From: a virus
Reading direction: 5' to 3' (one strand)
DNA length: 64,000 bases
UHGV virus genome: UHGV-1558314
The notes beneath the pieces are model-generated. The model ran no database searches. It saw only the letters and a program-made list of their open reading frames with translations, and had not been told where the DNA came from. Below are positions 18,462 through 59,031 of this stretch, piece by piece (the first letter of the stretch is position 1; every line of letters begins with the position of its first letter). The position numbers and the translations under genes are program-made.

Positions 18462-18806
18462 TTACAAATATGAGTACAGTTTGTTCATAACTCGTTCAAT
18501 TGCAAATTCAACACCATATTGCAACAACTGTTCAGTGCTAAATGTCTTTGCTGCATGTGCATGCGCAACAATATGCTTTGTCTGTGCATATAATATCCAA
18601 GTATCAGTTGGCCTGTCATAAGTTACTGTCAGTCTACATGTTTGCAACACAAACTCTTGACTAAAGTATTCTCTTCGCCAAAACTCTGGTTCTGCAATAT
18701 GCAAATCAAGCCAAGCAAACTCAAACAGAATTTGTTTAAGTTGACGTTGATGCTTACGTTCAGCACGATATGAGTTGCTGAATAGCCATTTAATGATGTT
18801 CATCAT
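18462..18806 (-). CDS. Hypothetical protein (about 114 aa)
   Basis: ATGA start/stop overlap with upstream SIS gene. Confidence 0.5.
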   Translation of the reverse strand: MMNIIKWLFSNSYRAERKHQRQLKQILFEFAWLDLHIAEPEFWRREYFSQEFVLQTCRLTVTYDRPTDTWILYAQTKHIVAHAHAAKTFSTEQLLQYGVEFAIERVMNKLYSYL

Positions 18807-19519
18807 TTGCAATCATTATGCTGAGTATGAATTGCGTTGCCCTGTGAATCCAAGCGAATCGCAGTTTGCATTGCGACTTCAGATTGTGTTTGTTCTGCTT
18901 GACGAGCTCTTTGAAGTCCACCTCCAGGGTGACATGTGTAAAATCTATCAAAGTCAGTGCCAAGCTGTTCAGCAACAGACAACATGATGTTATCACCAAT
19001 GAGCTGAGATGCTAGCAGAGAATTCGTCGGAATTCGTGGATTGCGTGAGTCCTCGTCAATTGCTGGCAATGATACAAGCAAGTCTGCCCAAGCATTCATA
19101 TCAGTGACCTTGCCACCAGCAAAGTTAATGCCGATGATTTGGCAATTCGGTGCAAGCAATTCACGATGTTCACGAAGATATGTCATTGCAGTTGCAAGTT
19201 CAGATGTGTTGCCTGTTTTGCTGAATGCTACAATAACATCATTGTTTCGAATCATACCAAAGTCACCATGCATTGCATGTACTGCATCAAAGAACGCAGC
19301 ATCAAGTGAAATTGAATAGCATGTTGCAGCAAGTTTTTCACAGCAATGCACATTTTTGCCAATGCCAGTGAACAATACTTTGCCATCAGACTTCAATGCA
19401 TTTGCAATAATGTCTGCTGCAATGCCAAGAACATCATATTGCGCATCTGAAATGTTGTTGTGCCATGCTACAAGCGACTCGACTGATGCAGCAATGCCTT
19501 TGTGTACAAGTGTTTTCAT
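18803..19519 (-). CDS. SIS-domain sugar-phosphate isomerase (arabinose-5-phosphate isomerase KpsF/GutQ-like, no CBS domains)
   Basis: GKVLFTGIGKN...KLAATCYSISLDAAFFDAVHAMHGDFGMI...DVIVAFSKTGNTSEL matches the KpsF/KdsD SIS signature. Confidence 0.8.
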   Translation of the reverse strand: MKTLVHKGIAASVESLVAWHNNISDAQYDVLGIAADIIANALKSDGKVLFTGIGKNVHCCEKLAATCYSISLDAAFFDAVHAMHGDFGMIRNNDVIVAFSKTGNTSELATAMTYLREHRELLAPNCQIIGINFAGGKVTDMNAWADLLVSLPAIDEDSRNPRIPTNSLLASQLIGDNIMLSVAEQLGTDFDRFYTCHPGGGLQRARQAEQTQSEVAMQTAIRLDSQGNAIHTQHNDCK

Positions 19520-23474: not shown

Positions 23475-24494
23475 CTATTGCTTATGCCAGCCATATGATG
23501 CCTGACCAGCATCATACACTTCTACAAAACCATGGTCGTACATAAAATCTTCATTACGAGTGCCCTTGCCCCCATTAGTACCAAGAATACGGTCTGCACC
23601 ATGCATAAGCAGCATATTATTTGTGATATGTTGCTTTGTCAGCATATTGAACCAATGTTTGCTATATGACAAGCCAAGACCATCAAAGCCCAGCTTTGTG
23701 TACACGCCACCATCAAACTTGCTCAAATCACAATACGACAACACAGATTCAGGGTCATATGTCTTGATAAAGTGCTTGAATATGCGTTCGGCGCCACCTA
23801 CGACTTTTGTTGCTGCACAAAGACGCAGTAGTTCATACTGATATCGCTTATTGTATCGTGGACGACCAAATGTCATAAGCTGATGTATGACATAGCCGCC
23901 AAGCAATTCAAGTGGATGGCCTTCAATCAACGCAAGATTGATAAAATTGCCTGAGCACTTGCCTTGCAAATGATGTTCAATCAAAAATTGATTTGCAGTA
24001 TACTTGTCAATTTCAACAACTTTAAGCTTGCGAGCATATACAATCTTTGATTTGTCTACGATTTGATGCTTGATGTGATTGATAACTTTCTTGGCGTCAT
24101 CCCAATCCCACACATGAATGCAATGAAAGCCTGCAGCTTTTGCAATGTCTGTTTTCTTTGCATGAATATCACAAGGCAAATGCGAATCTTTTGCAGCATG
24201 CATAAATAGATGCTCAAATGAATGCGTGCTATTATGTGAAAATGTGGGATTGATGTTGATGACGATGTTGTCATGTCTAAAATCGAAGACTTCATCACCA
24301 ATAACAAAGTTGCGCTCAAAATCTATACCGACATGTTTGAGTAATACTTGATGCCACACATCTTTATAGGCTGATTCAAGATTGCTTAGCTCATCACAGT
24401 TTGCAATATTTTTGTAACGTTGAATAGCAGCATCAAAGTCAAGATTGACTTCAGCGTAGTCTGCATTTTTATCGTAGTGAAATTTTGAGCTCAT
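23475..24494 (-). CDS. Homing-endonuclease-like protein, family paralog 1 (Vsr/DUF559-like nuclease motif)
   Basis: IVININPTFSHNSTHSF ... GFHCIHVWDWDD and C-terminal VEVYDAGQ shared with paralogs; ATG at 24492-24494. Confidence 0.75.
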   Translation of the reverse strand: MSSKFHYDKNADYAEVNLDFDAAIQRYKNIANCDELSNLESAYKDVWHQVLLKHVGIDFERNFVIGDEVFDFRHDNIVININPTFSHNSTHSFEHLFMHAAKDSHLPCDIHAKKTDIAKAAGFHCIHVWDWDDAKKVINHIKHQIVDKSKIVYARKLKVVEIDKYTANQFLIEHHLQGKCSGNFINLALIEGHPLELLGGYVIHQLMTFGRPRYNKRYQYELLRLCAATKVVGGAERIFKHFIKTYDPESVLSYCDLSKFDGGVYTKLGFDGLGLSYSKHWFNMLTKQHITNNMLLMHGADRILGTNGGKGTRNEDFMYDHGFVEVYDAGQASYGWHKQ

Positions 24495-24515
24495 GTGTAT
24501 AATTTGTATGAGATT

Positions 24516-24544
24516 ATTGTACAACATGCAAATGCATGTTGCAT
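24516..24544 (-). promoter_or_regulatory. Sigma70-like promoter (ATGCAA-N17-TACAAT)
   Basis: Plus attgtacaac at 24516-24525, ttgcat at 24539-24544. Confidence 0.5.
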
Positions 24545-24598
24545 TTGATGCAAAGTACTGCGTACACAACATAAAGTACAAGTTTGCTTTTGACAGAC

Positions 24599-33611: not shown

Positions 33612-36600
33612 TTAGCCACGAATCAAGTCAACCAAGCGTTGCTGTTCAGGAGTCAATGACGACTTTCCACTGCCATCAACGTTTTCGTTAACGAAACCGA
33701 CTGGCTGCTTAGTCGAATATGACTTGATTGCAGCCCAGTTACGTGAACGATAGAATGCTGCGACATCTGACTCATTTACGAAAGTGCGAACTGCTGCCTG
33801 AGTAGCAATCAATGACTTCTGTTCAGGAGTCAAGCTTTCATAAATGTACTTGTATGCTGTTGGCATGTGCTTCAGATACAATGGCGTATGGTCAATTGGC
33901 TGCAGATTCTCATCCAAGACTGCCACACCTGCAGCATCATAGCGAGTTGCAAGCTGCTTTGTTTGACGACGCAATGCAGCAATTTCATGCTTGATGTTTG
34001 TCAAGCATTCATCTGTTGCTTGCGCGCCAAGATATGTGCGAAGCATATCAGACAGCATCTTCTGATTTGCGTCAGTCAAATCACCTGCGACTTCGATGCC
34101 AGTCAGCTGGTCATCCTTACTGATGACTACAGAAATTGTAGAGCCATCACGCTCAACTGTGCGGAAGTCAAAGTCATCATATGACTTATCCTTAAGAACA
34201 GCTTCACGAATATTGTCATCTACGCCTTCATTGACCATGCTCATGCATTCCTCAACATCTACGTCAAGTCCAAGCTCTTCTGCAGTTTCAGCAATCTTTT
34301 CTGCAAGTTGAGCTTTGTTTTCAACTTTGTCGAGGTCTGCTGCATCTGATACAGCATCGACAAGTTCATCTGCCTGTGCACGAGTAATCGTTGAAGCATC
34401 AACAAGGCCATCAATGATTTGCTCTACATCTGCAGGCGTCGGCTTATTGTCTTCTGTAGCTTCATTGATAAACTTAGCAGTCTTTGGCTTGTAGCTAAGC
34501 TTGCCCTCATTAACCATCTCATCCTGCAATTGTGCAGCGATGTATGCAATCAGCAATGACTTGTTGGCTTCAAGTTCATCGACTGCTTCAGCAGACTTTT
34601 GAGCTTTGATGAGTTCATCGTAAGCTGCTGCAACTTTGTCATCCATCGTAGACTTGTCAGGGTCAATGTTTTTGATGCATGTCTTGACAATGTCATCCTG
34701 ATAGAACTTGTCAATGATTGACTTGTCAGTGTCAGAGTACGTTGCATACAGCTTGTCAGCAACAATTGACTCATTGACAATCTTGCCAGGCTCAGATGCA
34801 GGAACAAGAGTCCACTTACCATCAACTTCTGCAACAATGCCTGATGTCGATTCACCATAAGTGACTGTCAGACGAGTACCAGCTTCATTGTTATCAATTG
34901 TGTTGACGACTGCTTCGAATTCATTGCCATCTGCATCATAGATTTTGATGTTGTCACCGACAGCAGCTTCATCTACTGGTGCTTCGAAGAACTCTTTGAC
35001 AAAGTTCTGAACATCAACGGGCAGACTGTCATATGGCTGTGATGCATAGTACTCTGAGTCAGCGTCAAGGTAGTTCTTTGACAGCAGCCAAGTTTTTCGA
35101 GCAGCAACATCTGCAGCATTCCAAGCATCGACTGACTCATCGCAGTCATCAACAAGTGCAAGATACTCAGGGTCTTTCTTGTCATCAAAACGAAGAGTAA
35201 ACTTTTGCTCGGGCTTGCCAGCAGGCCAAACTTCGACTTCAATTTTTGTAGTGCCTGCAACATTTTTGACTGCGCCTACAACAATCTTGTCGCCTTTGTT
35301 GATGCCATTAGACATGTCGTATGGTGCTTCAATAGATTCATCTGTCGACTGTGCTCGAATTGCAGCTGCAATAGCGTTACGAGATTCATTGTCAAACATC
35401 TCCCATGTAGCATTTGCAGCATCTTCTACGCCAATCTTGTCTTTGCCAATCTGCTCAATTAACTGATTGCGGTCAGCTACTGAAGCATTGTACCACCAGT
35501 CTGCTGCAGGGTCAGAAGCTTCATCAAGCGCTTTGACAGTTTCATATCGACCGTCATACAGCATGTACTTATCACCTTCTTTGATGGCTACAGACTCCTT
35601 GCCATTGTACTTGAATGACACTTTGTCTTCATTGAAGCCAGTCAATTCAGCTGTGATTTTGTCACCGTTCTTGTCATAAACTTCGACAGTTTGTGCTTCA
35701 TCAATGTTCAAGTGCTTCTTGAGTGCATCTACAAGTTCTTTGCCAAGTGCATCTTCATTGTCATGAGCATGTTGGAAGCAATCTTCATCTGACTTATCAG
35801 GCTGAACAGCTTTCAATGCTGTGGCACGATTGAGCATTGACATTGTGCCCCAGATTGATACGAAGCTTTTGCCCTCATTGTCTTGTGCTTTGGCTTCGTC
35901 AATTGCATCAATGTCTTTCTCAAGCATTGCATGATGAGCAATGTCGATGCCAGCCCATTTCGTCTTTGCATTATATGGCAAACCAATATGCTTCGACAAA
36001 ATTGACTGACGCTGGTCATCTGTGAATGAATCCCAAGCTTCGCCAAGTGTTGCATGCTTTGCTTCATCAGCAGCAAATTCAGCTTCAATCTTGAGTTTGT
36101 GGTCCTTGTCAATCAGTTGCCACTTGGCATTTGGACGATAAAACTCAGACAATGACAGCTTGTCAAGAATGACTTTGCGTTCGTCATCTGACAATTCGTC
36201 CCACTTGTTGTCAGCAGATTCATCGATGTTGACGAGTTCTTTCTCAATGAGATTCTTGTCAAGCATTGCATCAATGATTGGCTGCTGGGCTTCTGCTGGA
36301 ATGTCTTTGAACGACTTAATTGCAATGACAGCGTCTTTGTCATCAACTTTAGCAGCTTCAACAATTTCTGTCTTCACTTCATCAGTCAAAGCGCCCCAAG
36401 CAGCATCGAGATAATCAAAGTTGAGAGCTTCATCACATTCAACAATGCCATACTGCTTTGCAATGTCATTGTGCTTGTCAAGATTGCTGTCGAGTTCAGC
36501 TTCAATTGCTGCTTTGATGTCATCAATTGACTTATCTTCAACTTCAAACTCAAGAGCTTTTGCAAATTCAGTCAATGCTGCATCATCAAGCTTGCTAATG

Positions 36601-37562
36601 TCATAAGGCTTAGCATCTTCATTTGTGAAGTCAATGCCAAGCAAAGACATTGCTTGTTTTTTGTTTTCTTCTGAGAGTGCATCGAATGCAGTTGCAAGAC
36701 CGACATCGGTATAGTCACACCCAACTTCGTCAAGCAATGCTTCGACTTTCTGGATGTTTTCTACACCAACTTCATTAGCATCAGCATTGTTGTATGCCTC
36801 AATAAAACGTGATTGGTTTGTCATGGTAGTGAAATCTTCTATTGATTCGTTTATGAGTTGCTGTTTGAGTGCATCCAATGATGCTGAGCCAATCAATGCA
36901 TCAGGGAATAGCTTCTGCAACATGCCTGTACGTGCAAGCTCAATCAATTGGAGCATCAATGAGTTTGGCGAGTCTTCGTCATCTACAGATTCACAAATGA
37001 GAGTGTCTTTTGATTCATTAACTGAACCGACAAGATTGAACTCTGCTTCAGGAAATGACGGCTCGCATACTAAATCGTATGTAATCAACTTTAGTAGAGT
37101 CGTTGCACCTGTAGTAGGATTAACTATACCAAGAGCTCGACTTGATACAAACAATGGTGAGCCTGCAGCCACAACTGCCCATGCAATACGACCTGCTGGC
37201 GTATCAAGAATAGTAATCCAGCCTTCAAATCGTTGCTTATCAGGATTCCATTCAATACTGTCAATGCGGTGTGATACATTCCCATACTTCACAGTACGTC
37301 GCTTAACATGCTCAAGCTCGCCAAATAGACGCTTAGCTTTGATTGCTGATTGCAATGTTTGTACTTGCGCAAAATAATTTTCGAAATTGTATGTTCGACC
37401 ATTACGATTACGCTCGCCAATAGTTGCATATGTACCGAACAATCTACCAAGCGCGCCACTTGGCACATGTTCATCTACAGCTTCAGCAACAAATTGACAA
37501 TCCTGGCGGCTTTCTATAATAAGCTGCGCAGGCTTGCCTTTGTATGTTATTGGTTTTGCCAT
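33612..37562 (-). CDS. Prohead protease (T4 gp21 / S77-like) fused to a long acidic scaffold/internal-protein-like region (1316 aa)
   Basis: N-terminal NGRTYNFENY ... LFGELEHVKRR ... SHRIDSIEW ... ILDTPAGRIAWAVVAAGSPLFVSSRALG ... YDLVCEPSFP; downstream GSVNE, LINESIED, MSMVNEG, KFINEA, KIVNES, TFVNES, GFVNEN. Confidence 0.8.
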   Translation of the reverse strand: MAKPITYKGKPAQLIIESRQDCQFVAEAVDEHVPSGALGRLFGTYATIGERNRNGRTYNFENYFAQVQTLQSAIKAKRLFGELEHVKRRTVKYGNVSHRIDSIEWNPDKQRFEGWITILDTPAGRIAWAVVAAGSPLFVSSRALGIVNPTTGATTLLKLITYDLVCEPSFPEAEFNLVGSVNESKDTLICESVDDEDSPNSLMLQLIELARTGMLQKLFPDALIGSASLDALKQQLINESIEDFTTMTNQSRFIEAYNNADANEVGVENIQKVEALLDEVGCDYTDVGLATAFDALSEENKKQAMSLLGIDFTNEDAKPYDISKLDDAALTEFAKALEFEVEDKSIDDIKAAIEAELDSNLDKHNDIAKQYGIVECDEALNFDYLDAAWGALTDEVKTEIVEAAKVDDKDAVIAIKSFKDIPAEAQQPIIDAMLDKNLIEKELVNIDESADNKWDELSDDERKVILDKLSLSEFYRPNAKWQLIDKDHKLKIEAEFAADEAKHATLGEAWDSFTDDQRQSILSKHIGLPYNAKTKWAGIDIAHHAMLEKDIDAIDEAKAQDNEGKSFVSIWGTMSMLNRATALKAVQPDKSDEDCFQHAHDNEDALGKELVDALKKHLNIDEAQTVEVYDKNGDKITAELTGFNEDKVSFKYNGKESVAIKEGDKYMLYDGRYETVKALDEASDPAADWWYNASVADRNQLIEQIGKDKIGVEDAANATWEMFDNESRNAIAAAIRAQSTDESIEAPYDMSNGINKGDKIVVGAVKNVAGTTKIEVEVWPAGKPEQKFTLRFDDKKDPEYLALVDDCDESVDAWNAADVAARKTWLLSKNYLDADSEYYASQPYDSLPVDVQNFVKEFFEAPVDEAAVGDNIKIYDADGNEFEAVVNTIDNNEAGTRLTVTYGESTSGIVAEVDGKWTLVPASEPGKIVNESIVADKLYATYSDTDKSIIDKFYQDDIVKTCIKNIDPDKSTMDDKVAAAYDELIKAQKSAEAVDELEANKSLLIAYIAAQLQDEMVNEGKLSYKPKTAKFINEATEDNKPTPADVEQIIDGLVDASTITRAQADELVDAVSDAADLDKVENKAQLAEKIAETAEELGLDVDVEECMSMVNEGVDDNIREAVLKDKSYDDFDFRTVERDGSTISVVISKDDQLTGIEVAGDLTDANQKMLSDMLRTYLGAQATDECLTNIKHEIAALRRQTKQLATRYDAAGVAVLDENLQPIDHTPLYLKHMPTAYKYIYESLTPEQKSLIATQAAVRTFVNESDVAAFYRSRNWAAIKSYSTKQPVGFVNENVDGSGKSSLTPEQQRLVDLIRG

Positions 37563-46480: not shown

Positions 46481-47736
46481 TAACTGTCATACGACCAGTG
46501 ACCACAGTCATACACTGGCACAAATCCAGTGTCAAGCATTTCTTGCTCATTAAAGTCATCATCAAGCAAGTGTTCACCCGATTTTGTATTAACCCAGTGC
46601 TTCTTAATTGTGCATTCATCAACCGCAAAGGGATTAAGTACATTGTCAGTACAGTCAATGAACGCATCATTCAAATGCGCTTCAATGATATGAAGCACAA
46701 TTTCTTGGTCGTGCCAATCAAATATCATGAGTGGCGTGTAGCCACATGCAATTGCAAGTTGTTGCTTCCACCAATGATAGTTTGGCTATTTTGCTTCTGC
46801 AGCATTTCGTTTAAAGCCATACACGCTATTATGAGTATGCGTCGGGTTAACGTCAATTAGCAGATTGCCATAATACAGGTCATATGACGTTATGCCAACA
46901 CCATGTTCAAACTCAAAATGCACACCAAGATGTTCTTCAATGTATGATTGCCACCATCTGTTTGGCGCAGATATGATTTGCCCATTTGCTTGCATACATT
47001 TATTTGTCATGCAAAACCATGGCACACCGTAACGTTCCATACAGGTTTTTGAAATTGCAGCAAGCCATTCATCTTTGTCTCTATGCGGCCATGCATAACC
47101 ATAACGCAGACGGCATGTTTGTTGAGCTTTAGCAACGATTGGCGCTAAACGTTCACCGTATATTTCACGTTTAGTTGCGATGGCTTTGCGTGGATTAGTC
47201 CATCCAGCATCACCCCATCGCTCAAGCTTCGTTTGCTGAGATTTTTCAACAATCAGTTCAAGATTCTCACCATATTTTTGACGACGAGTTTGCATTGCTG
47301 CAACATAATCTGTAATGCATCTATGGCCATACAAACGTTCTTTTGTCGCACATTGAACATCTACTGGACCTTGTGGATAGCCATAGCGTTCCATATTCGT
47401 TTGACGAATATGTGCTTTATCGCCATATGAACTGCCGTAGCGTGCAACTTTAGTGGCAATTGTTTGCTTGATGTTGCCTGCTTTAGAACCATAACGAGCT
47501 TCTTTAGTTGCTACGCATTTTTGTTTGACTTCTGCTCTGTTCCAATTATGCTCAACGCCATGTTTACGAAGATGGCCAATTTTCATGTTGTACACGTTTT
47601 TGATATGACCATGAGATGTCTTACGTGGTGCATATCGTACAAATGGTGTTTCTGCAAGCAACTTATCTCGTTCAGCTTCAAGCTCTTTAATTCGAGCTTC
47701 AAGAGCTTCACCAGTCAAAGGCTCTACATGTTTCAT
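46480..47736 (-). pseudogene. Homing-endonuclease-like paralog 4 interrupted by a single in-frame TAG (46786-46788)
   Basis: ORFs 46786..47736 and 46480..46728 are in the same frame; intervening codons read *PNYHWWKQQLAIACGYTPLMIFDW and align with intact paralogs. Confidence 0.7.
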
Positions 47737-48233
47737 TCGTGTTTGCCAGTTTGAAATAACGAATCAATTGGGATGTGAATACCAGGTTTGGATTGAATGT
47801 TCCATCCGCGCGCCAAACCATTAAGTACGCAGCTCGTAAGGTAAGAAAACGCGTTTTGAGTTACTGTTGGGTCAAACATTTGCCACTTTGACGCCAAAAT
47901 TAGCATGGCTTCTGCTGCGACATCTGCTTGCAAGTCTTTGTCTCTGTAGTATAAACGTCTCTGCACATGTTTGATAAGCAACTCAAACATGTGTATAAGT
48001 TTATCTGACAGCTGCCCAGATACTTTGCATGCGCATATTTCTGCACAAAGTTCTTTGTTGTTAATGTAATAGTTTGATGGCTGACCACGTTTCTTTGTGT
48101 TTGCTGCTTCTTCACGAAGTTGGTCTTCAAGCTGTGTCAACATGTCATCATCTGACACATATTGAATATGCTTATCTTCTGGCAGTTTAGATTCTATTGG
48201 TTGTAAGTTTTGCAGTGGCATAACAGTGAGCAT
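47733..48233 (-). CDS. Late-transcription sigma factor, T4 gp55-like
   Basis: PSNYYINNKEL matches T4 gp55 N-terminal KYNYVNNKEL; QNAFSYLTSCVLNGLARG region similar; ATG at 48231-48233. Confidence 0.7.
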   Translation of the reverse strand: MLTVMPLQNLQPIESKLPEDKHIQYVSDDDMLTQLEDQLREEAANTKKRGQPSNYYINNKELCAEICACKVSGQLSDKLIHMFELLIKHVQRRLYYRDKDLQADVAAEAMLILASKWQMFDPTVTQNAFSYLTSCVLNGLARGWNIQSKPGIHIPIDSLFQTGKHE

Positions 48234-48249
48234 TAAAATTCCTATATAA

Positions 48250-48360
48250 ATTGTACAACATGCAAAATGTTTTTGCACCATTTTGATACAACATGCATTG
48301 CATATTTGCAATGATGCAAAGTACGATGTACACAACATGCATTGCATATTTGCAATCATA
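48250..48360 (-). repeat. Three tandem promoter-like repeat units (about 35-40 bp each)
   Basis: attgtacaacatgcaaaatgtttttgcacc / gatacaacatgcattgcatatttgcaatg / gtacacaacatgcattgcatatttgcaatc. Confidence 0.55.
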
Positions 48361-51369: not shown

Positions 51370-52662
51370 CTACAACAATGACGGCACTCGTTGAGTTTCA
51401 AGTGGGTCGCTGACATTGATGCCTGTGTATGCAACAAGTCGTTGTATTGGGCCAAGTACGAGTTTTTCGAACATGAGTCGTTTGTTCATTGGCGGCACAT
51501 CTGGCATATACTTCGGTGTCGGCATTTCGCCTGGTGCAAAGCCAAATGCATCGCAATATTGACGAGAGCCAATTGGGATATTTGACAAATCTGACTTTGC
51601 TCTGTCAACAAAGTAGTAGAACACTCGACCGCCTTCAATCAATGGGTATCGTGTTTCCAATCCATGAGCTTTTACAAGACGATTATGCCAACAACATGCC
51701 CTGTACTGAGGCAGTACACCTTTTGCTAACTGCCATTCGCCATCATAGCTTAACACATAGTCATGATACTTGTTTGCATTGACATATGCACAAAGTTTTT
51801 CCAAGTCTTGCTCAGCTTCAAAGCGTTTCCATAATTTCTGTATGAGCTTTGGATATGTCGCAGAAGTCAATTCACCTCTGAACATTTTTTTGAATGCATA
51901 ATCAAGCATTTGCCTAACAAGCATTGATGAGCCTGTTTGAATAAGTTCGATGCCCTTACCTTGAATATGCTCAGTAGGGTCTTCAAATACTCGACCATCT
52001 ACATATATTTGAGACTTCAAATACTTTTTCTTTTGGGCAAATAATGCAGTATCAGAAATCGTCTCAAGGTCGAACATTAGCACAGAATCTCCATGACGCT
52101 TTGCAAGGTCATTTGCATATGACCTATTGAACAGTTCTTCCATACGATATTTGAATATCGCAAGAATCAAGTCATACCAATTTTTGCCTGTGTAACCAAT
52201 TGACTTAACTGTCGGCTCAAAGTGAATGTACAAAGAGTCTGTGTCAATATACAGCACTTTGTCTTCATAGGGTTCTTGCTTTGGCGACACAGACAAATCA
52301 AAATTGCCTTTCAATTTGGGGTCATTGCGCAGCTTTTCATGCAATTCATAATCACACCACCATTTATTGTTGAGATAGTCATTTGCTACTCGTTCGCCAA
52401 AGTGAATGAAGTTACGCCCTTCTGCAGTAATTGATTCTGCAACTGCCATATTGAAGAAGTGATAGAATCGATTACTTGTCGCACCATAAATACTGTTCCT
52501 TAGTGTTTTGAACGTCACCTGCAATGACGCATGTTTAAGCGACTCTTGTATTGCAAAGCCACGTAATTCAAATAGACGCTCAGTAGACAACTGACTCAAA
52601 TCGCCAGTTAAATCTACTCCATCTATTTCAATTTTTGACATGTCTATCTGAGCTTCTGCCAT
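51370..52662 (-). CDS. Family-B DNA polymerase, C-terminal part (motifs B and C)
   Basis: FKTLRNSIYGA (KxxxNSxYG) and LYIDTDSLYI (DTDS). Confidence 0.9.
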   Translation of the reverse strand: MAEAQIDMSKIEIDGVDLTGDLSQLSTERLFELRGFAIQESLKHASLQVTFKTLRNSIYGATSNRFYHFFNMAVAESITAEGRNFIHFGERVANDYLNNKWWCDYELHEKLRNDPKLKGNFDLSVSPKQEPYEDKVLYIDTDSLYIHFEPTVKSIGYTGKNWYDLILAIFKYRMEELFNRSYANDLAKRHGDSVLMFDLETISDTALFAQKKKYLKSQIYVDGRVFEDPTEHIQGKGIELIQTGSSMLVRQMLDYAFKKMFRGELTSATYPKLIQKLWKRFEAEQDLEKLCAYVNANKYHDYVLSYDGEWQLAKGVLPQYRACCWHNRLVKAHGLETRYPLIEGGRVFYYFVDRAKSDLSNIPIGSRQYCDAFGFAPGEMPTPKYMPDVPPMNKRLMFEKLVLGPIQRLVAYTGINVSDPLETQRVPSLL

Positions 52663-52683
52663 AAGGTATCTTATTTAATTATT

Positions 52684-52712
52684 ATTGTACAACACACATT
52701 GCAATTTTGCAA
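52684..52712 (-). promoter_or_regulatory. Sigma70-like promoter (TTGCAA-N17-TACAAT)
   Basis: Plus attgtacaac at 52684-52693, ttgcaa at 52707-52712. Confidence 0.55.
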
Positions 52713-52726
52713 TATGTGTGTTAAAC

Positions 52727-52762
52727 AAAAATGCAGCAGCAGAACATCTGCTGCTGCATCGG
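52727..52762 (-). terminator. Rho-independent terminator
   Basis: aaacaaaa atgcagcagcag aacat ctgctgctgcat. Confidence 0.6.
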
Positions 52763-52801
52763 CAGGTATCTTCACATGTATTTGAGTTGATTACGATGTG
52801 A

Positions 52802-53629
52802 TTAGAATGGCAGGTCACCATCGTCACCTGCAGCGCCAAATTCAGCTGCAATGTCATATACCAACGTCATTGCGATTCGCAAATCGCGCTTCTTAGACTT
52901 CAGGCGCATGATATCATGACCAGAATTGTTTGTGATGACTGAACATTCAAACTCTTCATTGCCATCAATAAATGACAACATTGATTTGTGAATTGTGATT
53001 GGCGATAAATCAGATGGGTAATTTGCATCAATCACATATTCAAAGTTGTTGTTCTTGGCAATTAGTCCTCGTTCAGTCGTACGAATCTCAATGCCGGGCA
53101 ATTCCTTATCACCAGTATTCAATGAGCCATACGATGACATGATGCCAAAGTGATTTGACGTCAAATCGAGTTTTCTTAGATTTGTTGTGCTGTCAAACAA
53201 CATTGACATATCATTGTCAGACAGCTCAAAGTAGCCAAGTGATGGCATTGAACAAACCTGATTGATTTTGAGCTGATTGTTTGAGATTACAATGAGCTCT
53301 GCAATTGTATCTGTGCCAATTTGTTTGACATAGATTTCAATCATTGCAGATGAGCCAAATGCAGCAAGTACTCGATTGTTAAACTGTGTGCCGTTGTAAA
53401 TGAGCGCCTTGACTGTGACATCTTTGAGCGTCGACTCATAATGCTCACAAATATCAAGAACATTGAGCGTCTGTGATTTTACAAAGCTGCTGTTGCCAGC
53501 ATCAGTTCTGATTCGCTGGTCATTAAGTGAAAAGCTAAGCTTGCCATCGCACTTTAATGATGATGCAAACAATGCTCGCAGCATATCAATGTTTGCATTG
53601 CGTAACGTAATTTTGTTCAAAGTTTCCAT
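52802..53629 (-). CDS. Hypothetical protein (275 aa) with SSB-like acidic C-terminal tail
   Basis: C-terminus ...GAAGDDGDLPF resembles the DDDIPF SSB tail; body not recognisably OB-fold; function unknown. Confidence 0.65.
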   Translation of the reverse strand: METLNKITLRNANIDMLRALFASSLKCDGKLSFSLNDQRIRTDAGNSSFVKSQTLNVLDICEHYESTLKDVTVKALIYNGTQFNNRVLAAFGSSAMIEIYVKQIGTDTIAELIVISNNQLKINQVCSMPSLGYFELSDNDMSMLFDSTTNLRKLDLTSNHFGIMSSYGSLNTGDKELPGIEIRTTERGLIAKNNNFEYVIDANYPSDLSPITIHKSMLSFIDGNEEFECSVITNNSGHDIMRLKSKKRDLRIAMTLVYDIAAEFGAAGDDGDLPF

Positions 53630-53697
53630 CTTGTATCTATGTTGTTGATTTTCAATTTAATATATTGAACAACATTTGTTGACATTTTGCAACATTG

Positions 53698-54072
53698 TCA
53701 TCGATTGTCGCCTGACCCATGCAGTACGCCTCGTAATTTTCGAGACTGTAGTTTCTGAATGTTAAGCTGACAAATGTCAGTTAAGCTGTAGCCCAAATCA
53801 TGTGCAAGAGTTGCAGCATACCACATGACATCGCTAAGCTCTTTTGCGATTTCCTTGCGAATGTCTTCATTGTCAAAATCACCATTCTTGTCTCGAATGA
53901 CTTTTTTGACTTTGTCTGCAACTTCGCCTGCTTCACCCGTCAAGCCAAGCGTTGGATAGACAATTGCAGCTGATTTAGGATACACTGCGCTATCAAGTGC
54001 AGCAGTCTGATATTCATCAATGGTTGAAATACAAGTGTGGTCAATTACACCATGTTCATCTCGTTTAAGCAT
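53698..54072 (-). CDS. mazG: MazG-like nucleotide pyrophosphohydrolase
   Basis: LTGEAGEVADKVKK ... KELSDVMWYAATLAHDLGYSL. Confidence 0.75.
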   Translation of the reverse strand: MLKRDEHGVIDHTCISTIDEYQTAALDSAVYPKSAAIVYPTLGLTGEAGEVADKVKKVIRDKNGDFDNEDIRKEIAKELSDVMWYAATLAHDLGYSLTDICQLNIQKLQSRKLRGVLHGSGDNR

Positions 54073-54073
54073 A

Positions 54074-54565
54074 TCATTTACGTTTTTGTTTGACTCTTAA
54101 TCGTTTTTGCATAAATGCTCTTGTAGCTTCACCAAAAGCCATCTCGTCTCGTTCGCCACCACAAAGCTTTGCAAGCTTATTGAATGTGTCTTGGTCAATC
54201 ATTGTGTACGTTGAGTTGTTGACCACATGCAATGCAAACTGAATCAGCGGTGCGCCTGGCTGCAAGCAGAACGGCTCTTTGCCCGCATTGTACACTGCAA
54301 GATGAATCTCGCCATGATAGTCTGAATCTACAAACTCACTTGTTTTGATGATAAGATGATTTCGTGAAATGCCCGACTTATTGTAGGCAATCAATGCATG
54401 ACAGGCAGGCACAAGTGCTTTGATGCCAGATGGAATTGCAATGCCCTCACCAGGTTGCAGCATTGTTTGCACAAAATCATTGGGTATGCAAAAGTCCCAT
54501 GCGCCAGATTCTGCTGTTGACTTAAAAGGACTTTCTACATTTCTGCATTTTGCAAAGAATAACAT
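54074..54565 (-). CDS. dUTPase / dCTP deaminase superfamily protein
   Basis: GAWDFC (motif 1-like), IAIPSGIKAL, VDSDYHGEI (motif 3), PGAPLIQFAL (motif 4-like). Confidence 0.75.
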   Translation of the reverse strand: MLFFAKCRNVESPFKSTAESGAWDFCIPNDFVQTMLQPGEGIAIPSGIKALVPACHALIAYNKSGISRNHLIIKTSEFVDSDYHGEIHLAVYNAGKEPFCLQPGAPLIQFALHVVNNSTYTMIDQDTFNKLAKLCGGERDEMAFGEATRAFMQKRLRVKQKRK

Positions 54566-54588
54566 ATTAAGTATGTGTTTGTATGTTG

Positions 54589-54939
54589 TTAGTACATTTC
54601 TCGTTTAACAAGAGCTTTGCGTTTTGAGCGTAACCCTGCCCTATTACGTAATTCTACTGACCAATCACGAATCATTTGCCATGCAATCCCACCACGTTGA
54701 ATACCACCGTGCTTGAACATTTCATTGCAAATACCTTGAATAAACACCGCATCAGACTTTGTCAATGCGTCAACAATTTGACCATGGTTGTCTTCTGTCT
54801 TGACATCATTACAGAGCTTAAGTTCATCTACTGAAAGTTCGCCAAGCAGCTCATAGTAGTATATGAGAGCTTTGCGTGCGGCAATTGCTTTTCTTGAATT
54901 GCCAGAATAAGACAAAGTTACATGTTTGCTCATATTCAA
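54589..54939 (-). CDS. Hypothetical protein (116 aa)
   Basis: ORF track; no motif. Confidence 0.55.
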   Translation of the reverse strand: MNMSKHVTLSYSGNSRKAIAARKALIYYYELLGELSVDELKLCNDVKTEDNHGQIVDALTKSDAVFIQGICNEMFKHGGIQRGGIAWQMIRDWSVELRNRAGLRSKRKALVKREMY

Positions 54940-54959
54940 TTATTGTTATTATATGTTGA

Positions 54960-54988
54960 TATTGTACAACATGTGTTAACTTTTTGCA
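54960..54988 (-). promoter_or_regulatory. Sigma70-like promoter (ATGCAA-N17-TACAAT)
   Basis: Plus attgtacaac at 54960-54969, ttgcat at 54983-54988. Confidence 0.5.
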
Positions 54989-56175
54989 TGACCACAATCA
55001 TACACCGCAACATAGCCAGCATCAATCATCTCTTGCTCATCTTGTCCGCAATCTTCAATATGTTCTTTTGTCTTCAAATGACACCAGTGTTTGCGAATTG
55101 TTGACTTGTCATCTGACAATTGCGGATTGAGTGCGAAGTCAGTTGAGTCTACTGGTTCACCTGCAAGATGCTTTCTAATGACATCAATGACAACATCAAA
55201 TGGCATCCAGTCAAACACTGTAATGCAAGTGTAGCTGTGTTTGATAGCAAGTTGTGTTTTGTTAAAATGGTTGTCATATGGTCGTTGCCAATTATGATTT
55301 GCATTGAACACAATATTTGCAAAACTACGCGTGCTATTATGAGAAATAGTTGGGTTAAGTTCAATTAGCAACTTATGCGATTTGCAAACAATGTCATATG
55401 ACAATGACGTGTTCTCAAATGTAAATTCTTGCTCAAAATGCACATCAAGGTTATCAAATAGCATGTTAAGCCTTGTGCATATTTTTGTATTGTGTGCAGA
55501 CTTTGCTTTAGATTTTGCTCTGCATTGAGGCAATTGGCATGGCCACACTACACCATGACGTGACAATGTTGTTGCACGAATTGCGTCAAGATTCGTTGAT
55601 GGATTGCCATATCGAGCTATTCGAGTTTGCCTTGCTTTGTCTATATTGCCTGGGCCTGCATTGCCCCATCGCTGCAACTTTGTTTGTCGAGCTTGTTCAT
55701 GATTGCTGTAATATGGGTCTCCATATCGTTCAAGCTTTGTTTGCTTTAACTTACTCATGTCGCCAAGCCCATTGCCATACTTAGCACGCTTTGTTTCTAT
55801 GCCTTTCTTTAGATTGCCTCGTTTGTTGCCATATTTTGCAATGTTGTGTGCATTACGTTTTTCAATGTCACCAAACCCATTGCCATATCGTGCAAATTTT
55901 GTTGCTTGCGCTTTTTCAAAATTGACTGCTAATGTGCCATAACGAGCATACTTAGTTGCTTTGCCCTTATCAACGACTTCTTTACGATGCAATGCAGCTT
56001 CAACACCATATTTTCGCAAATTTGTAATTTTTGCATTGTATCGTCGTCTAATTGTTGCATGAGTGTTGTTACGAGACCCTGTTCTGACATATTCAGTTGC
56101 AGCAAGTTCAGCATCACGTAACTGCTCAAGTTCTGCAATTCGTTGTTCAAGTTCAGCGCCTACAAGTGGTTTCAT
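54976..56175 (-). CDS. Homing-endonuclease-like protein, paralog 5, between the two polymerase ORFs
   Basis: Seven about 17-aa repeats with (K/R)YG core; LLIELNPTISHNSTRSF ... SYTCITVFDW ... VAVYDCGH. Confidence 0.75.
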   Translation of the reverse strand: MKPLVGAELEQRIAELEQLRDAELAATEYVRTGSRNNTHATIRRRYNAKITNLRKYGVEAALHRKEVVDKGKATKYARYGTLAVNFEKAQATKFARYGNGFGDIEKRNAHNIAKYGNKRGNLKKGIETKRAKYGNGLGDMSKLKQTKLERYGDPYYSNHEQARQTKLQRWGNAGPGNIDKARQTRIARYGNPSTNLDAIRATTLSRHGVVWPCQLPQCRAKSKAKSAHNTKICTRLNMLFDNLDVHFEQEFTFENTSLSYDIVCKSHKLLIELNPTISHNSTRSFANIVFNANHNWQRPYDNHFNKTQLAIKHSYTCITVFDWMPFDVVIDVIRKHLAGEPVDSTDFALNPQLSDDKSTIRKHWCHLKTKEHIEDCGQDEQEMIDAGYVAVYDCGHAKS

Positions 56176-56183
56176 GTGTTGTT

Positions 56184-57689
56184 TTACAATTTGATTGCGC
56201 CTCTACGAGCAAGCTCTTCTTCAATCAATCGAACATGATTGTTAGAATACCAGAACTGAATTTTTTTGTGATAATTACGCTTGTCTCCAAGTTCTTCCTG
56301 TACTGCTTTGTACATGCTTTTTTCATGATTGTCATACAAGCAGTCATTAACGGACACAAAGTACTCTGGCAATGACTTGTAATGCGCAATTTCATCAGGA
56401 TTTGTCAGACGTCTGATAAAGTTATCCGGTGATACATTGCATGATTTCATTGAACTTGGATAGAGTGAATTTGCATCAACACAAACAACTTTATGAGCCC
56501 AATGGTTAAATGGTTGCTTCACAAAGCCACCTTCAAATGCATGCACAACATTTTCTGGACCGCCTTGAGCACATACGACTTTGCCACCATATTTGTTGTA
56601 CAAATATGTCATCATGACGCCCTCAGATTGCTTAACTGGGCCTTGACAGTGGTTCATATCAATGTTTGACACATTTGACAAGCCCATCACATTTGATATC
56701 AAGTCAGTTTTTGCAGCAATCATCGCATTGACCATCGTATCGACAGCATTATATGCAATGAACGTGCATGGATGATACAAATACAGCTCTTTAAGTGTAC
56801 AATCATAGGGCAGCTTACCTACACCGAACATACGATGTGCAATATAGTCAAGTCGCAATGACTCTTTTTGCCACACTGAATAGTCGTATGTGTCCATGAG
56901 CTGCATGTAGTCATCAATGTACTTGTGATATGGCATACCATTGCCCCAGACAGTTCTGCCAACTGGAGATGCCAATGCTAAATCAATATTGTGCATTGCG
57001 CATCGATTTTTGACATAGATGTTGTCGAAGCCATTGATGTTCCAGCCTGTCAATGCAGGAATGTTTTTGAAGAGCTTAGTCACCCAAAAATGCAACAATT
57101 CATGCTCATTTGCATGTTGAAAGATTTTGACAGTTGGATGTTCTTTCAAATACGCAGCAAAGCAATGTTGACCCATGTACTCTTGAATGATGCCATTGAC
57201 AAACTCAAATGCATCATCCAGTGTTGGGTTTTGTTTGCCACAGCTTTTGCGCAAATCATCATCATTCAACAAGTCAACAGTAGTCTGAATGACACAATTG
57301 CATTGTTCATCGCATGTACTTATTGCATTAATGGGCATTTCAGCTTTGTCAGGCTTTGGAAAGCCATTGCCAATTTCAGTCTCAATATCGTAAAAGTATA
57401 ACTTTGGTCTACGATAAGCAAACAATTCAACTTTGTCAGCTTCAGGCAATTCAAATAAGAATTGCAGCAAGTCAAATTGATTGAATCGTTTTGCTGTGAC
57501 TCGAGTCACAGGCAATTTGCGCCAATCTTGAATATCTGCATATTGCGGCTCTACATGGTCTGATATTTGCCATACTGGAAATTGATATGGCTGTTCACAG
57601 ACTGGGTATGTTTTGATGTCAATGCCACCTTGCTCATTAACGTATGAAACTTCAATGCCATGTGACAAATATGCTACGTCGACAATCAT
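56184..57689 (-). CDS. Family-B DNA polymerase, N-terminal part (3'-5' exonuclease motifs + polymerase motif A)
   Basis: LYFYDIETE (Exo I), NINGFDNIYV (Exo II), YNAVDTMV (Exo III), VCVDANSLYPSS (motif A); ATG at 57687-57689. Confidence 0.9.
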   Translation of the reverse strand: MIVDVAYLSHGIEVSYVNEQGGIDIKTYPVCEQPYQFPVWQISDHVEPQYADIQDWRKLPVTRVTAKRFNQFDLLQFLFELPEADKVELFAYRRPKLYFYDIETEIGNGFPKPDKAEMPINAISTCDEQCNCVIQTTVDLLNDDDLRKSCGKQNPTLDDAFEFVNGIIQEYMGQHCFAAYLKEHPTVKIFQHANEHELLHFWVTKLFKNIPALTGWNINGFDNIYVKNRCAMHNIDLALASPVGRTVWGNGMPYHKYIDDYMQLMDTYDYSVWQKESLRLDYIAHRMFGVGKLPYDCTLKELYLYHPCTFIAYNAVDTMVNAMIAAKTDLISNVMGLSNVSNIDMNHCQGPVKQSEGVMMTYLYNKYGGKVVCAQGGPENVVHAFEGGFVKQPFNHWAHKVVCVDANSLYPSSMKSCNVSPDNFIRRLTNPDEIAHYKSLPEYFVSVNDCLYDNHEKSMYKAVQEELGDKRNYHKKIQFWYSNNHVRLIEEELARRGAIKL

Positions 57690-57700
57690 ATTATTATCTT

Positions 57701-58111
57701 TTAGAATAGAGATATTGTACAACAATTTGATTCAGGTTGCCATTCTACAATATGCGCATCAAAGTGTTTGTTAAGCCAATGTGCAAGTATGTGTCTATGA
57801 CAAAATGCAGATGGTCTGCACCAACATAACAATACAATGTCTCGTTCGCCTGCAAAAATCTTTATGCGATGCAGCATCAAACTTATCTGTGACAATGCAG
57901 CGTCAAGTTTTGCTGCATATTGCTCTGCATATTGTGCATTGTCAAGCAAGCCTGCTTTATGCAAACGAACAAGTGACATGTAATCAGGCATGACGTCAGT
58001 CCATGTAAAATCTGCTATGAAGCCCTTAGGCTTTGTTGCAGACACTTGAACAAGAAATGCGTTATCAGGCAGATGCCTGCATGCATAATATGAAGTCAAG
58101 ATTCTTGTCAT
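57701..58111 (-). CDS. Hypothetical protein (136 aa), DUF488-like
   Basis: DIVLLCWCRPSAFCHRHILAHWL resembles the conserved DUF488 core; tentative. Confidence 0.55.
   Translation of the reverse strand: MTRILTSYYACRHLPDNAFLVQVSATKPKGFIADFTWTDVMPDYMSLVRLHKAGLLDNAQYAEQYAAKLDAALSQISLMLHRIKIFAGERDIVLLCWCRPSAFCHRHILAHWLNKHFDAHIVEWQPESNCCTISLF
57714..57742 (-). promoter_or_regulatory. Sigma70-like promoter (-10 TACAAT) for polymerase N-part
   Basis: Plus attgtacaac at 57714-57723; -35-like ttgcca at 57737-57742. Confidence 0.45.
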
Positions 58112-59031
58112 TCTACAGTAATTGTTGCAAGTTTGTTAATTGGCTGTATGAACACATCAAAGCTTTTAACAGTGCCAAACGCATTTCGTTTAACTGCATA
58201 TAACATTGTAGTGTTCACATCATGCTTTGCATAGCGAGTTTCAATGACTTGACTGATGTAGCCTTTTGAATCTCGAATGTATTCTATGCTTGTAGCAATT
58301 TTGTTTGCTTTGATAGAGTTTACTGTAATCAATGCGCCATTCTGACCATATGCATATTGCATTGTTGCTGTAGATGGCTTTGCAGCATTCACACTTAACT
58401 GCTGAATGACTTGCATTTTGCGACCATGCGAATCATAGTAATATGTGAATGTGCATGGAAACTTGCCAACCAAACTGTTCAAATGACGCAACTGCTCATA
58501 ATGATAGCTGAACTGCACTACACTACTATTAGATTCACAAATGCTGCTTGGTCTGTAGTAGCCATTGAAGCACCCATACTGAATTGTGTATGTTTCAAAA
58601 TGACCTCTACGATACAAACTAAGCAAACTAAGCATAGTCGTAGCCTCATCAACATGCAAGAACTTAATGTCTGCGCATGCATTGCTCTTGGCATAATCAG
58701 CTGCATTCCACTTATCAACGACTTTCCAAGAGTAGCATTTGATGCTTTGATTGCGCTCATTGACAAAGTGTATGCCATTTGACTGCACCTTTACAATGTC
58801 ATAGCAATTCAAATGACCATTACTGTCAATGAATTTTTGCAGCCAGTTTAAGGCCATAATATTTGTTGCAAATGTCTGTGCAAATGCAATTTGACCATCT
58901 GCAAATGCTGCTGTGTATGTCTTGTTCTTATCGTAGATTGGCAATGTTGCATCTGCATATGATGCTGCTACAAACGCATAGCCAATCACATTATTCTCAG
59001 AACTTAAATTAGAATGTCTCAACTGTTCCAT
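58108..59031 (-). CDS. Hypothetical protein (307 aa)
   Basis: ORF track; no motif. Confidence 0.65.
   Translation of the reverse strand: MEQLRHSNLSSENNVIGYAFVAASYADATLPIYDKNKTYTAAFADGQIAFAQTFATNIMALNWLQKFIDSNGHLNCYDIVKVQSNGIHFVNERNQSIKCYSWKVVDKWNAADYAKSNACADIKFLHVDEATTMLSLLSLYRRGHFETYTIQYGCFNGYYRPSSICESNSSVVQFSYHYEQLRHLNSLVGKFPCTFTYYYDSHGRKMQVIQQLSVNAAKPSTATMQYAYGQNGALITVNSIKANKIATSIEYIRDSKGYISQVIETRYAKHDVNTTMLYAVKRNAFGTVKSFDVFIQPINKLATITVE

What the first reader, a model, noticed from the sequence alone, without database searches (positions are those of the whole stretch)
52802..53629. Protein ending in an SSB-like acidic tail (GDDGDLPF) without an obvious OB-fold
The C-terminal eight residues mimic the SSB tail that recruits replication and repair partners, but the body does not resemble SSB. 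It may be a replication accessory protein or a decoy, and it lies between the polymerase C-part and MazG.
Basis: seen in the sequence. Interest (0 to 1): 0.4.

Follow-up and report, generated by a model that had tools for sequence, protein, structure and literature searches.

The report
Phage sliding clamp with SSB-like tail
The gene encodes the phage's ring-shaped DNA sliding clamp, which holds the polymerase on DNA, but it ends in the short acidic peptide that bacterial single-strand-binding proteins use to recruit repair and replication enzymes, a combination I found no published report of.

The parts
52802..53629 (-). Sliding-clamp gene, 275 aa plus stop. It is gp45/PCNA-type and belongs to the same family as phage PAU gp109.
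53255..53629 (-). Clamp domain 1, residues about 1-125. It consists of beta-alpha-beta-beta-beta units with helices 14-25 and 80-91.
   Evidence: Secondary structure of the model. Boundaries are approximate.
53219..53254 (-). Interdomain connector, residues about 126-137.
   Evidence: Non-regular segment between the two domains in the model. This is an inference by analogy with PCNA and gp45.
52862..53218 (-). Clamp domain 2, residues about 138-256.
52805..52861 (-). C-terminal tail, residues 257-275: VYDIAAEFGAAGDDGDLPF. It has 5 acidic, 0 basic and 3 aromatic residues and lower model confidence.
   Evidence: Tail composition. pLDDT is 67 and 59 in the last two blocks. F264 and DLPF are invariant and the linker is variable.
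52805..52828 (-). SSB-tip-like octapeptide GDDGDLPF-COOH.
   Evidence: Read directly from the DNA. Compare SSB tips MDFDDDIPF in E. coli (PMC11436948) and DISDDDLPF in S. aureus and B. subtilis (PMC5531588).
52730..52760 (-). Terminator-like hairpin with a 14-bp stem (7 G-C pairs) followed by TTTTGTTT, about 40 nt after the clamp stop codon.
   Evidence: Terminator scan. This is a consensus match only.
51370..52662 (-). C-terminal half of the split family-B DNA polymerase, the presumed client of the clamp. It ends in ...TQRVPSLL.
   Evidence: PHROG DNA polymerase hit, 1.7e-48. C-terminal sequences.
56184..57725 (-). N-terminal half of the split family-B DNA polymerase.
   Evidence: PHROG DNA polymerase hit, 1.1e-59.
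47733..48359 (-). gp55-like late sigma factor, a possible second client of the clamp. It ends in ...PIDSLFQTGKHE.
   Evidence: PHROG 234 late sigma factor, 2.7e-08. T4 gp55 ends in ...SLDFLYEAND. The clamp link is an inference from T4 biology.

Best explanation
ORF 52802-53629 encodes the phage's DNA sliding clamp. It is a two-domain gp45/PCNA-type protomer that presumably forms a trimeric ring, is loaded by a phage AAA+ clamp loader, and tethers the split family-B polymerase to DNA. By analogy with T4 it may also serve the gp55-type late sigma factor. Steps shown here: the clamp fold, membership in the PAU gp109 family, placement upstream of the polymerase C-half gene in nine loci, and a clamp loader in related phages. 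Steps inferred: ring formation, loading, and processivity. The clamp core is followed by a roughly 19-residue acidic tail of lower model confidence that ends in D-D-G-D-L-P-F-COOH, the consensus tip of bacterial SSB. I infer, at roughly 0.45, that this tip acts in trans as a docking peptide. On this model three tips per ring would recruit a protein with an SSB-tip-binding pocket to DNA-loaded clamps, at the face where the polymerase binds. That protein could be a host SSB-interacting enzyme or a phage replisome protein that also reads SSB tails.
Against: No sequence-level match to gp45 was obtained here: no Pfam hit for any of 56 members, and hhalign of A2 against T4 gp45 gives only 1.7%. Ring formation was not modelled. 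No clamp loader or SSB was found in the 64-kb window. The tail's partner is unknown. The linker is short, about 12 residues against about 56 in E. coli SSB. The Chryseobacterium and Sphingomonas phages of the family carry tails that do not end in [IL]PF, so mimicry of the host SSB cannot be the general function of the family's tail. The host of this phage, and therefore its SSB tip, is not known.
Confidence: 0.8

Rival explanations
1. The tail is a pseudo-ligand for the clamp itself. It folds back, in cis or onto a neighbouring protomer, into the hydrophobic peptide-binding pocket of the clamp. This would gate access of the polymerase, the clamp loader or the sigma factor, or stabilise the ring.
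For: The commonest family tail motif, [ISV][DEN]-F-x-[DE]-F, resembles the T4 clamp-binding peptides SLDFLF of gp43 and SLDFLY of gp55. By established PCNA and gp45 structure, the C-terminus of clamps emerges next to that pocket. The tail's pLDDT is 59-67 rather than below 50, and a short helical turn is predicted at residues 265-269. T4 gp45 itself ends in ...ADSTHDF.
Against: The window clade replaced the F-x-x-F core with a terminal L-P-F, which is the SSB-type signature and not a clamp-binding motif. No contact information was available from the model. Tail-less members (18 of 56) function without it.
Confidence: 0.25
2. The tail is a decoy. By displaying three SSB tips per ring, the abundant phage clamp titrates host SSB-interacting proteins (nucleases, helicases, restart proteins) away from host SSB, which would disable host repair or defence.
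For: The tip is a canonical SSB-Ct sequence. A strong terminator-like hairpin directly after the gene is compatible with a separately and highly expressed transcript.
Against: The body is a conserved, syntenic replisome component rather than a dedicated inhibitor. Most family tails are not SSB-Ct-like at their ends. There is no evidence on expression level or on host partners.
Confidence: 0.1
3. The terminal LPF is a protease degron, or the resemblance to SSB is coincidental within a generic acidic tail.
For: The C-terminal LPF of SsbA is a ClpXP recognition motif in Streptococcus mutans (PMC5143411). Acidic tails of many different sequences occur in the family.
Against: The same paper reports that the motif is not recognised in E. 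coli or other streptococci. Invariance of D-L-P-F next to a variable linker, across sequences down to 43% identity, argues for a specific readout rather than generic acidity.
Confidence: 0.07
4. The protein is an unconventional ssDNA-binding protein that carries its own SSB tail.
For: Only the tail itself supports this.
Against: The fold is a clamp, not an OB-fold. Related phages encode separate gp32-type SSBs, namely PAU gp173 and PTm1 ORF39.
Confidence: 0.02

Closest known systems
Sphingomonas phage PAU gp109, and the unannotated orthologues in Tenacibaculum phages PTm1 and pT24 and Chryseobacterium phages MA9V-1 and MA9V-2
   Same: It belongs to the same protein family (hhalign 99.9%; BFVD TM-score 0.84 to the PTm1 protein). 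It has a similar length, is acidic like gp109 (pI 5.0), and has the same gene position between the two halves of a split PolB. PAU gp109 was published as a distant T4 gp45 homologue (PMC4889955).
   Different: The tails of these cultured phages end in ...GWADFN...TNWDN and ...FAAFANGGH, not in the SSB-type D-L-P-F. The published description does not mention the tail.
T4 gp45 sliding clamp
   Different: There is no detectable sequence similarity here. This protein is 47 residues longer. gp45 ends in only a short ...EADSTHDF, with no extended tail.
PCNA (archaeal and eukaryotic)
   Different: There is no sequence similarity. This is a bacterial-virus context with a T4-type loader in relatives.
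Bacterial SSB C-terminal tip (SSB-Ct)
   Same: It has the same terminal chemistry: an acidic run followed by [I/L]-P-F at the free C-terminus, after a stretch of lower model confidence.
   Different: It is attached to a dsDNA-encircling clamp rather than an OB-fold tetramer. The linker is about 12 residues rather than tens. Binding to SSB-interacting proteins was not tested.
Acidic C-terminal tails of phage replisome proteins (T4 gp32 A-domain; T7 gp2.5 and gp4 tails ending in Phe) and the Rad9 tail of the 9-1-1 clamp (from my own knowledge, not tested here)
   Same: These are flexible acidic tails, often with a critical aromatic residue, used as docking or regulatory peptides in replisomes. 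Rad9 shows that a clamp subunit can carry a functional C-terminal tail. gp32-type SSBs of related contigs end in ...DDFDDFINGLDL, which is close to clamp tails of this family.
   Different: As far as I know none of them is a processivity clamp carrying a bacterial-type SSB tip. The partner here is unknown.

Membership tests
gp45/PCNA-type sliding clamp (DNA clamp fold) | The protomer consists of two topologically equivalent beta-alpha-beta-beta-beta-repeat domains | tested here: met
gp45/PCNA-type sliding clamp (DNA clamp fold) | Sequence-profile match to gp45 families (Pfam) or to T4 gp45 | tested here: not met
   No gp45 or other clamp Pfam family appears for the query at E <= 10 (only weak unrelated hits), and none for any of 56 family members at E <= 0.01. 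hhalign of A2 against T4 gp45 gives probability 1.7%. There is an indirect link: A2 against PAU gp109 gives 99.9%, and gp109 against gp45 exceeded 95% in the literature (PMC4889955).
gp45/PCNA-type sliding clamp (DNA clamp fold) | Closed ring (trimer of two-domain protomers) with a central DNA channel | not testable with these tools
   Only single-chain prediction was available, and no coordinates were returned.
gp45/PCNA-type sliding clamp (DNA clamp fold) | Cognate AAA+ clamp loader in the same genome | tested here: inconclusive
   None was found in the 64-kb window. One is present in relatives: MA9V-1 ORF237 matches DNA_pol3_delta2 at 30.5 bits against a cut-off of 27, and PAU gp76 is annotated as a clamp loader. 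The rest of the roughly 175-kb genome could not be read.
gp45/PCNA-type sliding clamp (DNA clamp fold) | Genomic association with the replicative polymerase | tested here: met
   The clamp gene lies upstream of the PolB C-half in nine independent loci, directly in seven and with one gene between in PTm1 and L005.
gp45/PCNA-type sliding clamp (DNA clamp fold) | Client proteins end in a short hydrophobic clamp-interaction peptide | tested here: inconclusive
   The PolB C-half ends in ...RVPSLL and the gp55-like protein in ...IDSLFQTGKHE. T4 gp43 ends in ...SLDFLFG and T4 gp55 in ...SLDFLYEAND. This is a resemblance only.
Bacterial SSB (OB-fold SSB with SSB-Ct) | OB-fold ssDNA-binding domain | tested here: not met
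   The fold is a clamp. No SSB Pfam or PHROG hit was found.
Bacterial SSB (OB-fold SSB with SSB-Ct) | C-terminal tip: an acidic run followed by [I/L]-P-F at the free carboxyl end | tested here: met
   The sequence D269-D270-G271-D272-L273-P274-F275 is followed by the stop codon. It is invariant in the clade. Reference tips come from PMC11436948 and PMC5531588.
Bacterial SSB (OB-fold SSB with SSB-Ct) | The tip is preceded by a flexible, disordered linker | tested here: inconclusive
   pLDDT drops to 67 and 59 in the last 15 residues, but not below 50, and the linker is only about 12 residues long. Its sequence is hypervariable.
Bacterial SSB (OB-fold SSB with SSB-Ct) | The tip binds SSB-interacting proteins | not testable with these tools
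   This needs binding assays or multimer modelling with host proteins, and the host is not identified.
gp32-type phage SSB | Profile match to gp32-type SSBs of related phages | tested here: not met
   A local HMM built from 60 gp32-type SSBs (PTm1, pT24 and IMG/VR contigs, one of which is PAU) finds nothing in the window, even with filters off.

The most novel reading that the evidence does not exclude
The clamp's D-L-P-F tip is a functional bacterial SSB-Ct. On this reading the phage has moved the SSB 'hub' peptide onto its sliding clamp. Host SSB-interacting enzymes, such as primase, RNase HI, RecQ, RecJ, PriA or exonucleases, would then be recruited to clamp-marked primer termini on phage DNA. 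Alternatively they would be handed over between SSB and clamp by competition for the same pocket. The family-wide acidic, aromatic tails would be the same principle tuned to the phages' own gp32-type SSB tails.
Probability: 0.25. Interest if true: 0.7.

Novelty: new variant of a known kind. Interest (0 to 1): 0.45.

Why it matters
Sliding clamps and SSB are the two main protein-recruitment hubs of a replisome. The clamp reads peptides through its pocket, and SSB displays a peptide that others read. A clamp that itself displays an SSB-type peptide would combine both kinds of hub in one ring. If the tail is functional, it offers a simple, testable handle on how a large phage connects its own polymerase machinery to host, or its own, enzymes that read SSB tails. 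There is also a practical result. The work gives a function to a protein family left as 'hypothetical' in the deposited PAU, PTm1 and MA9V-1 genome records I read (the pT24 and metagenomic relatives are 'uncharacterized' in UniProt). It also shows that two thirds of that family carry a conserved tail that has not been studied.

Tried and rejected
1. Direct sequence annotation gave nothing: Pfam, PHROGs and PDB phmmer on the protein, Pfam and PHROGs on all 56 family members, and a family profile against PDB sequences.

2. tblastn of the protein against GenBank phages found no match. Distant family members were needed to reach MA9V-1/2 and LR756500, and PAU gp109 was needed to reach PTm1.

3. 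The second word-indexed homologue search with the family alignment returned almost only the close clade.

4. hhalign of the family against T4 gp45 was not significant.

5. Host identification through the KdsD-like auxiliary gene in bacterial genomes returned only hits of about 30% identity in unrelated taxa. The only host hints are the absence of Shine-Dalgarno motifs (0 of 47 genes) and relatives that infect Flavobacteriia. PAU, however, infects Sphingomonas.

6. I tried to find this phage's own clamp loader and SSB. Neither is in the window. The 174.6-kb IMG/VR contig carrying a 97% identical clamp was not among the 80 loci returned for clamp-loader or SSB queries.

7. I tried to test whether clamp tails and SSB tails of the DFDDF type occur in the same genome. 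Only one IMG/VR locus was found for that clamp subgroup, and it did not overlap the SSB contigs.

8. I looked for other proteins with the same tail in the window and in fetched loci. There were none apart from clamps, SSBs and an RNR small subunit.

9. I looked for a recurrent promoter motif upstream of the gene and found none.

10. The SSB reading and the LRR reading (weak Pfam LRR hits, E about 0.05) were rejected on the basis of the fold.

Full report
OBSERVATION. The ORF is as described. It starts at ATG 53629, stops at TAA 52802-52804 on the minus strand, and encodes 275 aa ending in ...VYDIAAEFGAAGDDGDLPF. It lies between a MazG-like gene (53698-54072) and the C-terminal half of a family-B DNA polymerase (51370-52662). 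Among 473 six-frame ORFs of at least 50 aa in the window, it is the only one ending in an acidic stretch plus [LIVMF]-P-[FWY]. The protein has no significant match in Pfam, PHROGs or PDB sequences. Close homologues exist only in metagenome assemblies.

THE BODY IS A SLIDING CLAMP. A profile search of 1.84 billion cluster representatives found about 60 related proteins, nearly all 246-296 aa. With 56 of them as the alignment (A2), AlphaFold2 gave a confident model with mean pLDDT 93.2 and pTM 0.88. The model shows two successive sets of beta-alpha-beta-beta-beta units.

- Foldseek against the PDB agrees.
- The best viral models in BFVD are 'uncharacterized' proteins of Tenacibaculum phages PTm1 (TM-score 0.84) and pT24.
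- At the sequence level the link to gp45 is not visible here. No Pfam hit was found for any member, and hhalign of A2 against T4 gp45 gives 1.7%.
- The family does include Sphingomonas phage PAU gp109 (hhalign 99.9%, E 1.8e-33). Kazlauskas, Krupovic and Venclovas (2016) identified gp109 as a bona fide distant gp45 homologue after first finding the gp44/62-type loader (PMC4889955).

The clamp identity therefore has published precedent. Even so, the gene is still 'hypothetical' or an unnamed 'gpN' in the GenBank records of PAU, PTm1 and MA9V-1.

CONTEXT.
- The window belongs to a large T4-like-in-parts myovirus. It carries a portal, gp2-like DNA end protector, head completion protein, sheath, gp55-like late sigma factor, RNR, dNMP kinase, dUTPase and MazG.
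- The family-B polymerase is split into an N-half (56184-57725) and a C-half (51370-52662). Between them lie a homing-endonuclease-like gene, a small ORF, dUTPase, MazG and the clamp gene.
- In all nine contexts where the downstream gene could be read, the clamp gene lies upstream of the polymerase C-half. These are the window, MA9V-1, PAU, PTm1 and five metagenomic contigs. One gene intervenes in PTm1 and one in L005.
- Related phages encode an AAA+ clamp loader. MA9V-1 ORF237 matches Pfam DNA_pol3_delta2 above its cut-off (PMC10537231). PAU gp76 is annotated as a clamp loader.
- No loader or SSB lies in the 64-kb window itself. The genome is probably about 175 kb, judging from an IMG/VR contig with a 97% identical clamp.
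- A strong terminator-like hairpin follows the clamp gene.
- None of 47 genes has a Shine-Dalgarno core upstream. Together with the Flavobacteriia-infecting relatives this hints at a Bacteroidota host, but the host is not established (one search was uninformative).

THE TAIL. Residues 257-275 follow the last beta-strand and have lower model confidence (pLDDT 67 and 59).

- Within the clade (12 sequences, down to 43% identity), F264 and the terminal D-L-P-F are invariant. The linker 261-271 is the most variable part of the protein, with 6 of the 30 sites that vary among the near-identical variants. This pattern fits a short linear motif under selection.
- The tip matches bacterial SSB tips: MDFDDDIPF in E. 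coli (PMC11436948) and DISDDDLPF in S. aureus and B. subtilis (PMC5531588).
- The tail is a family trait in a broader sense. Of 56 members, 38 carry a 15-33-residue tail that is strongly acidic and contains two or more aromatic residues. Typical forms are [ISV][DEN]-F-x-[DE]-F (IDFDDFDNL, SDFTDFNLS, SEFENFKLS) or E-F-N-W. The other 18 members stop right after the core.
- Only the window clade ends in L-P-F.
- Tails of cultured relatives end in ...LDFNDDTTGWADFN (PAU)...SWDDFETDTNWDN (PTm1) and ...SNEFAAFANGGH (MA9V-1).
- The gp32-type SSBs of this phage group have their own acidic, hydrophobic tips: PAU ...SDVFDELGI and PTm1 ...DDLDDDFMKEVMG. Several IMG/VR contigs have ...KKDDFDDFINGLDL. The last is almost the same core as the clamp tails of P0021, P0022 and P0026.
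- The strict aromatic-acidic-acidic-aromatic motif occurs in the last 30 residues of 11 of 56 clamps. In the fetched DNA it occurs in 31 of 1325 ORFs, and about 9 of those 31 are themselves clamps or SSBs.

'SSB-like tail on a clamp' therefore seems to be a theme of the whole family. The bacterial-type tip is its form in this clade.

MECHANISM.
- Shown: the clamp fold, family membership, linkage to the polymerase gene, a loader in relatives, and a conserved tip.
- Inferred from established clamp biology: a trimeric ring loaded at primer termini tethers the split polymerase, whose C-half ends in ...RVPSLL. As in T4, it may also serve the gp55-like sigma factor, which ends in ...IDSLFQTGKHE. The T4 clamp-binding ends are SLDFLF and SLDFLY.
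- For the tail, the best-supported reading is a trans-acting docking peptide. In clamps the C-terminus emerges on the polymerase-binding face, so three tips per ring could recruit a partner with an SSB-tip pocket to clamp-marked DNA, or compete with SSB for that partner. I put this at about 0.45.
- Rivals are a fold-back pseudo-ligand for the clamp's own pocket (0.25; the family motif resembles T4 clamp-binding peptides), a decoy for host SSB partners (0.1), and a degron or coincidence (0.07; LPF is a ClpXP tag only in S. mutans, PMC5143411).
- An SSB function is excluded by the fold.

NOVELTY AND VERDICT.
- The clamp itself is a new member of a known and already published family (PAU gp109).
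- I found no report of a sliding clamp that carries a bacterial SSB-type C-terminal tip, nor of the family-wide acidic, aromatic tail (literature searches). The 2016 description of gp109 does not mention a tail.
- I therefore rate the finding as a new variant of a known kind and of moderate interest.
Its interpretation is partly right: the protein is a replication accessory protein and not an SSB. The decoy idea remains untested.

Noticed in passing
window 51370-57725: The family-B DNA polymerase is split into two genes 3.5 kb apart. Between them lie a homing-endonuclease-like gene (54976-56175), a 116-aa ORF, dUTPase, MazG and the clamp gene. A split PolB enclosing the clamp gene also occurs in PAU, MA9V-1, PTm1 and metagenomic contigs, though the other intervening genes differ. 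In PTm1 the C-half is further broken by an intein and a VSR endonuclease.
   Followed up: partly
whole window (47 gene starts): No gene has a Shine-Dalgarno-like core in the 20 nt upstream (0 of 47, against 4.3% at random positions). GC content is 40.9%. This is compatible with a Bacteroidota-type host, but the host was not identified.
   Followed up: partly
L125-L132 (IMG/VR contigs), ORFs around 1983-2924: The gp32-type SSBs of related uncultured phages end in ...KKDDFDDFINGLDL, nearly the same core as the clamp tails IDFDDFDNL, IDFDDFDDM and INFDDFVND of family members P0022, P0021 and P0026. Whether such an SSB and such a clamp occur in the same genome could not be checked.
   Followed up: partly
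L010 6918-7604 (T4 gene 45): T4 gp45 itself ends in ...ALEADSTHDF, a short acidic end with a terminal Phe. This may be a minimal counterpart of the long tails in the PAU-type clamp family.
   Followed up: no
window 58108-59031 (-): This 307-aa ORF next to the polymerase N-half gene contains YD-repeat-like strings (YYYDSHGRK, YAYGQNG). It has no Pfam or PHROG match.
   Followed up: no
window 33612-37562 (-): This 1316-aa ORF matches the prohead maturation protease only at residues 10-243. The remaining roughly 1070 residues are unassigned.
   Followed up: no
window 23475-24581, 46786-47736, 54976-56175 (-): Three genes match the same homing-endonuclease PHROG (3339). One sits inside the split polymerase locus and one lies next to the gp55-like sigma gene.
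   Followed up: no
window 57701-58111 (-): A DUF488-N3a family ORF (Pfam 38.4 bits) overlaps the start of the polymerase N-half gene by 25 nt.
   Followed up: no
window 18803-19519 (-): This is an arabinose-5-phosphate isomerase (KdsD-like) auxiliary gene. PAU has the same function annotated (gp212). The closest bacterial hits are only about 30% identical, so it gives no clue to the host.
   Followed up: partly
window 53651-53669: The near-palindrome TTCAATATATTAAATTGAA lies in the 68-nt spacer just upstream of the clamp start codon. It does not recur elsewhere in the window.
   Followed up: partly
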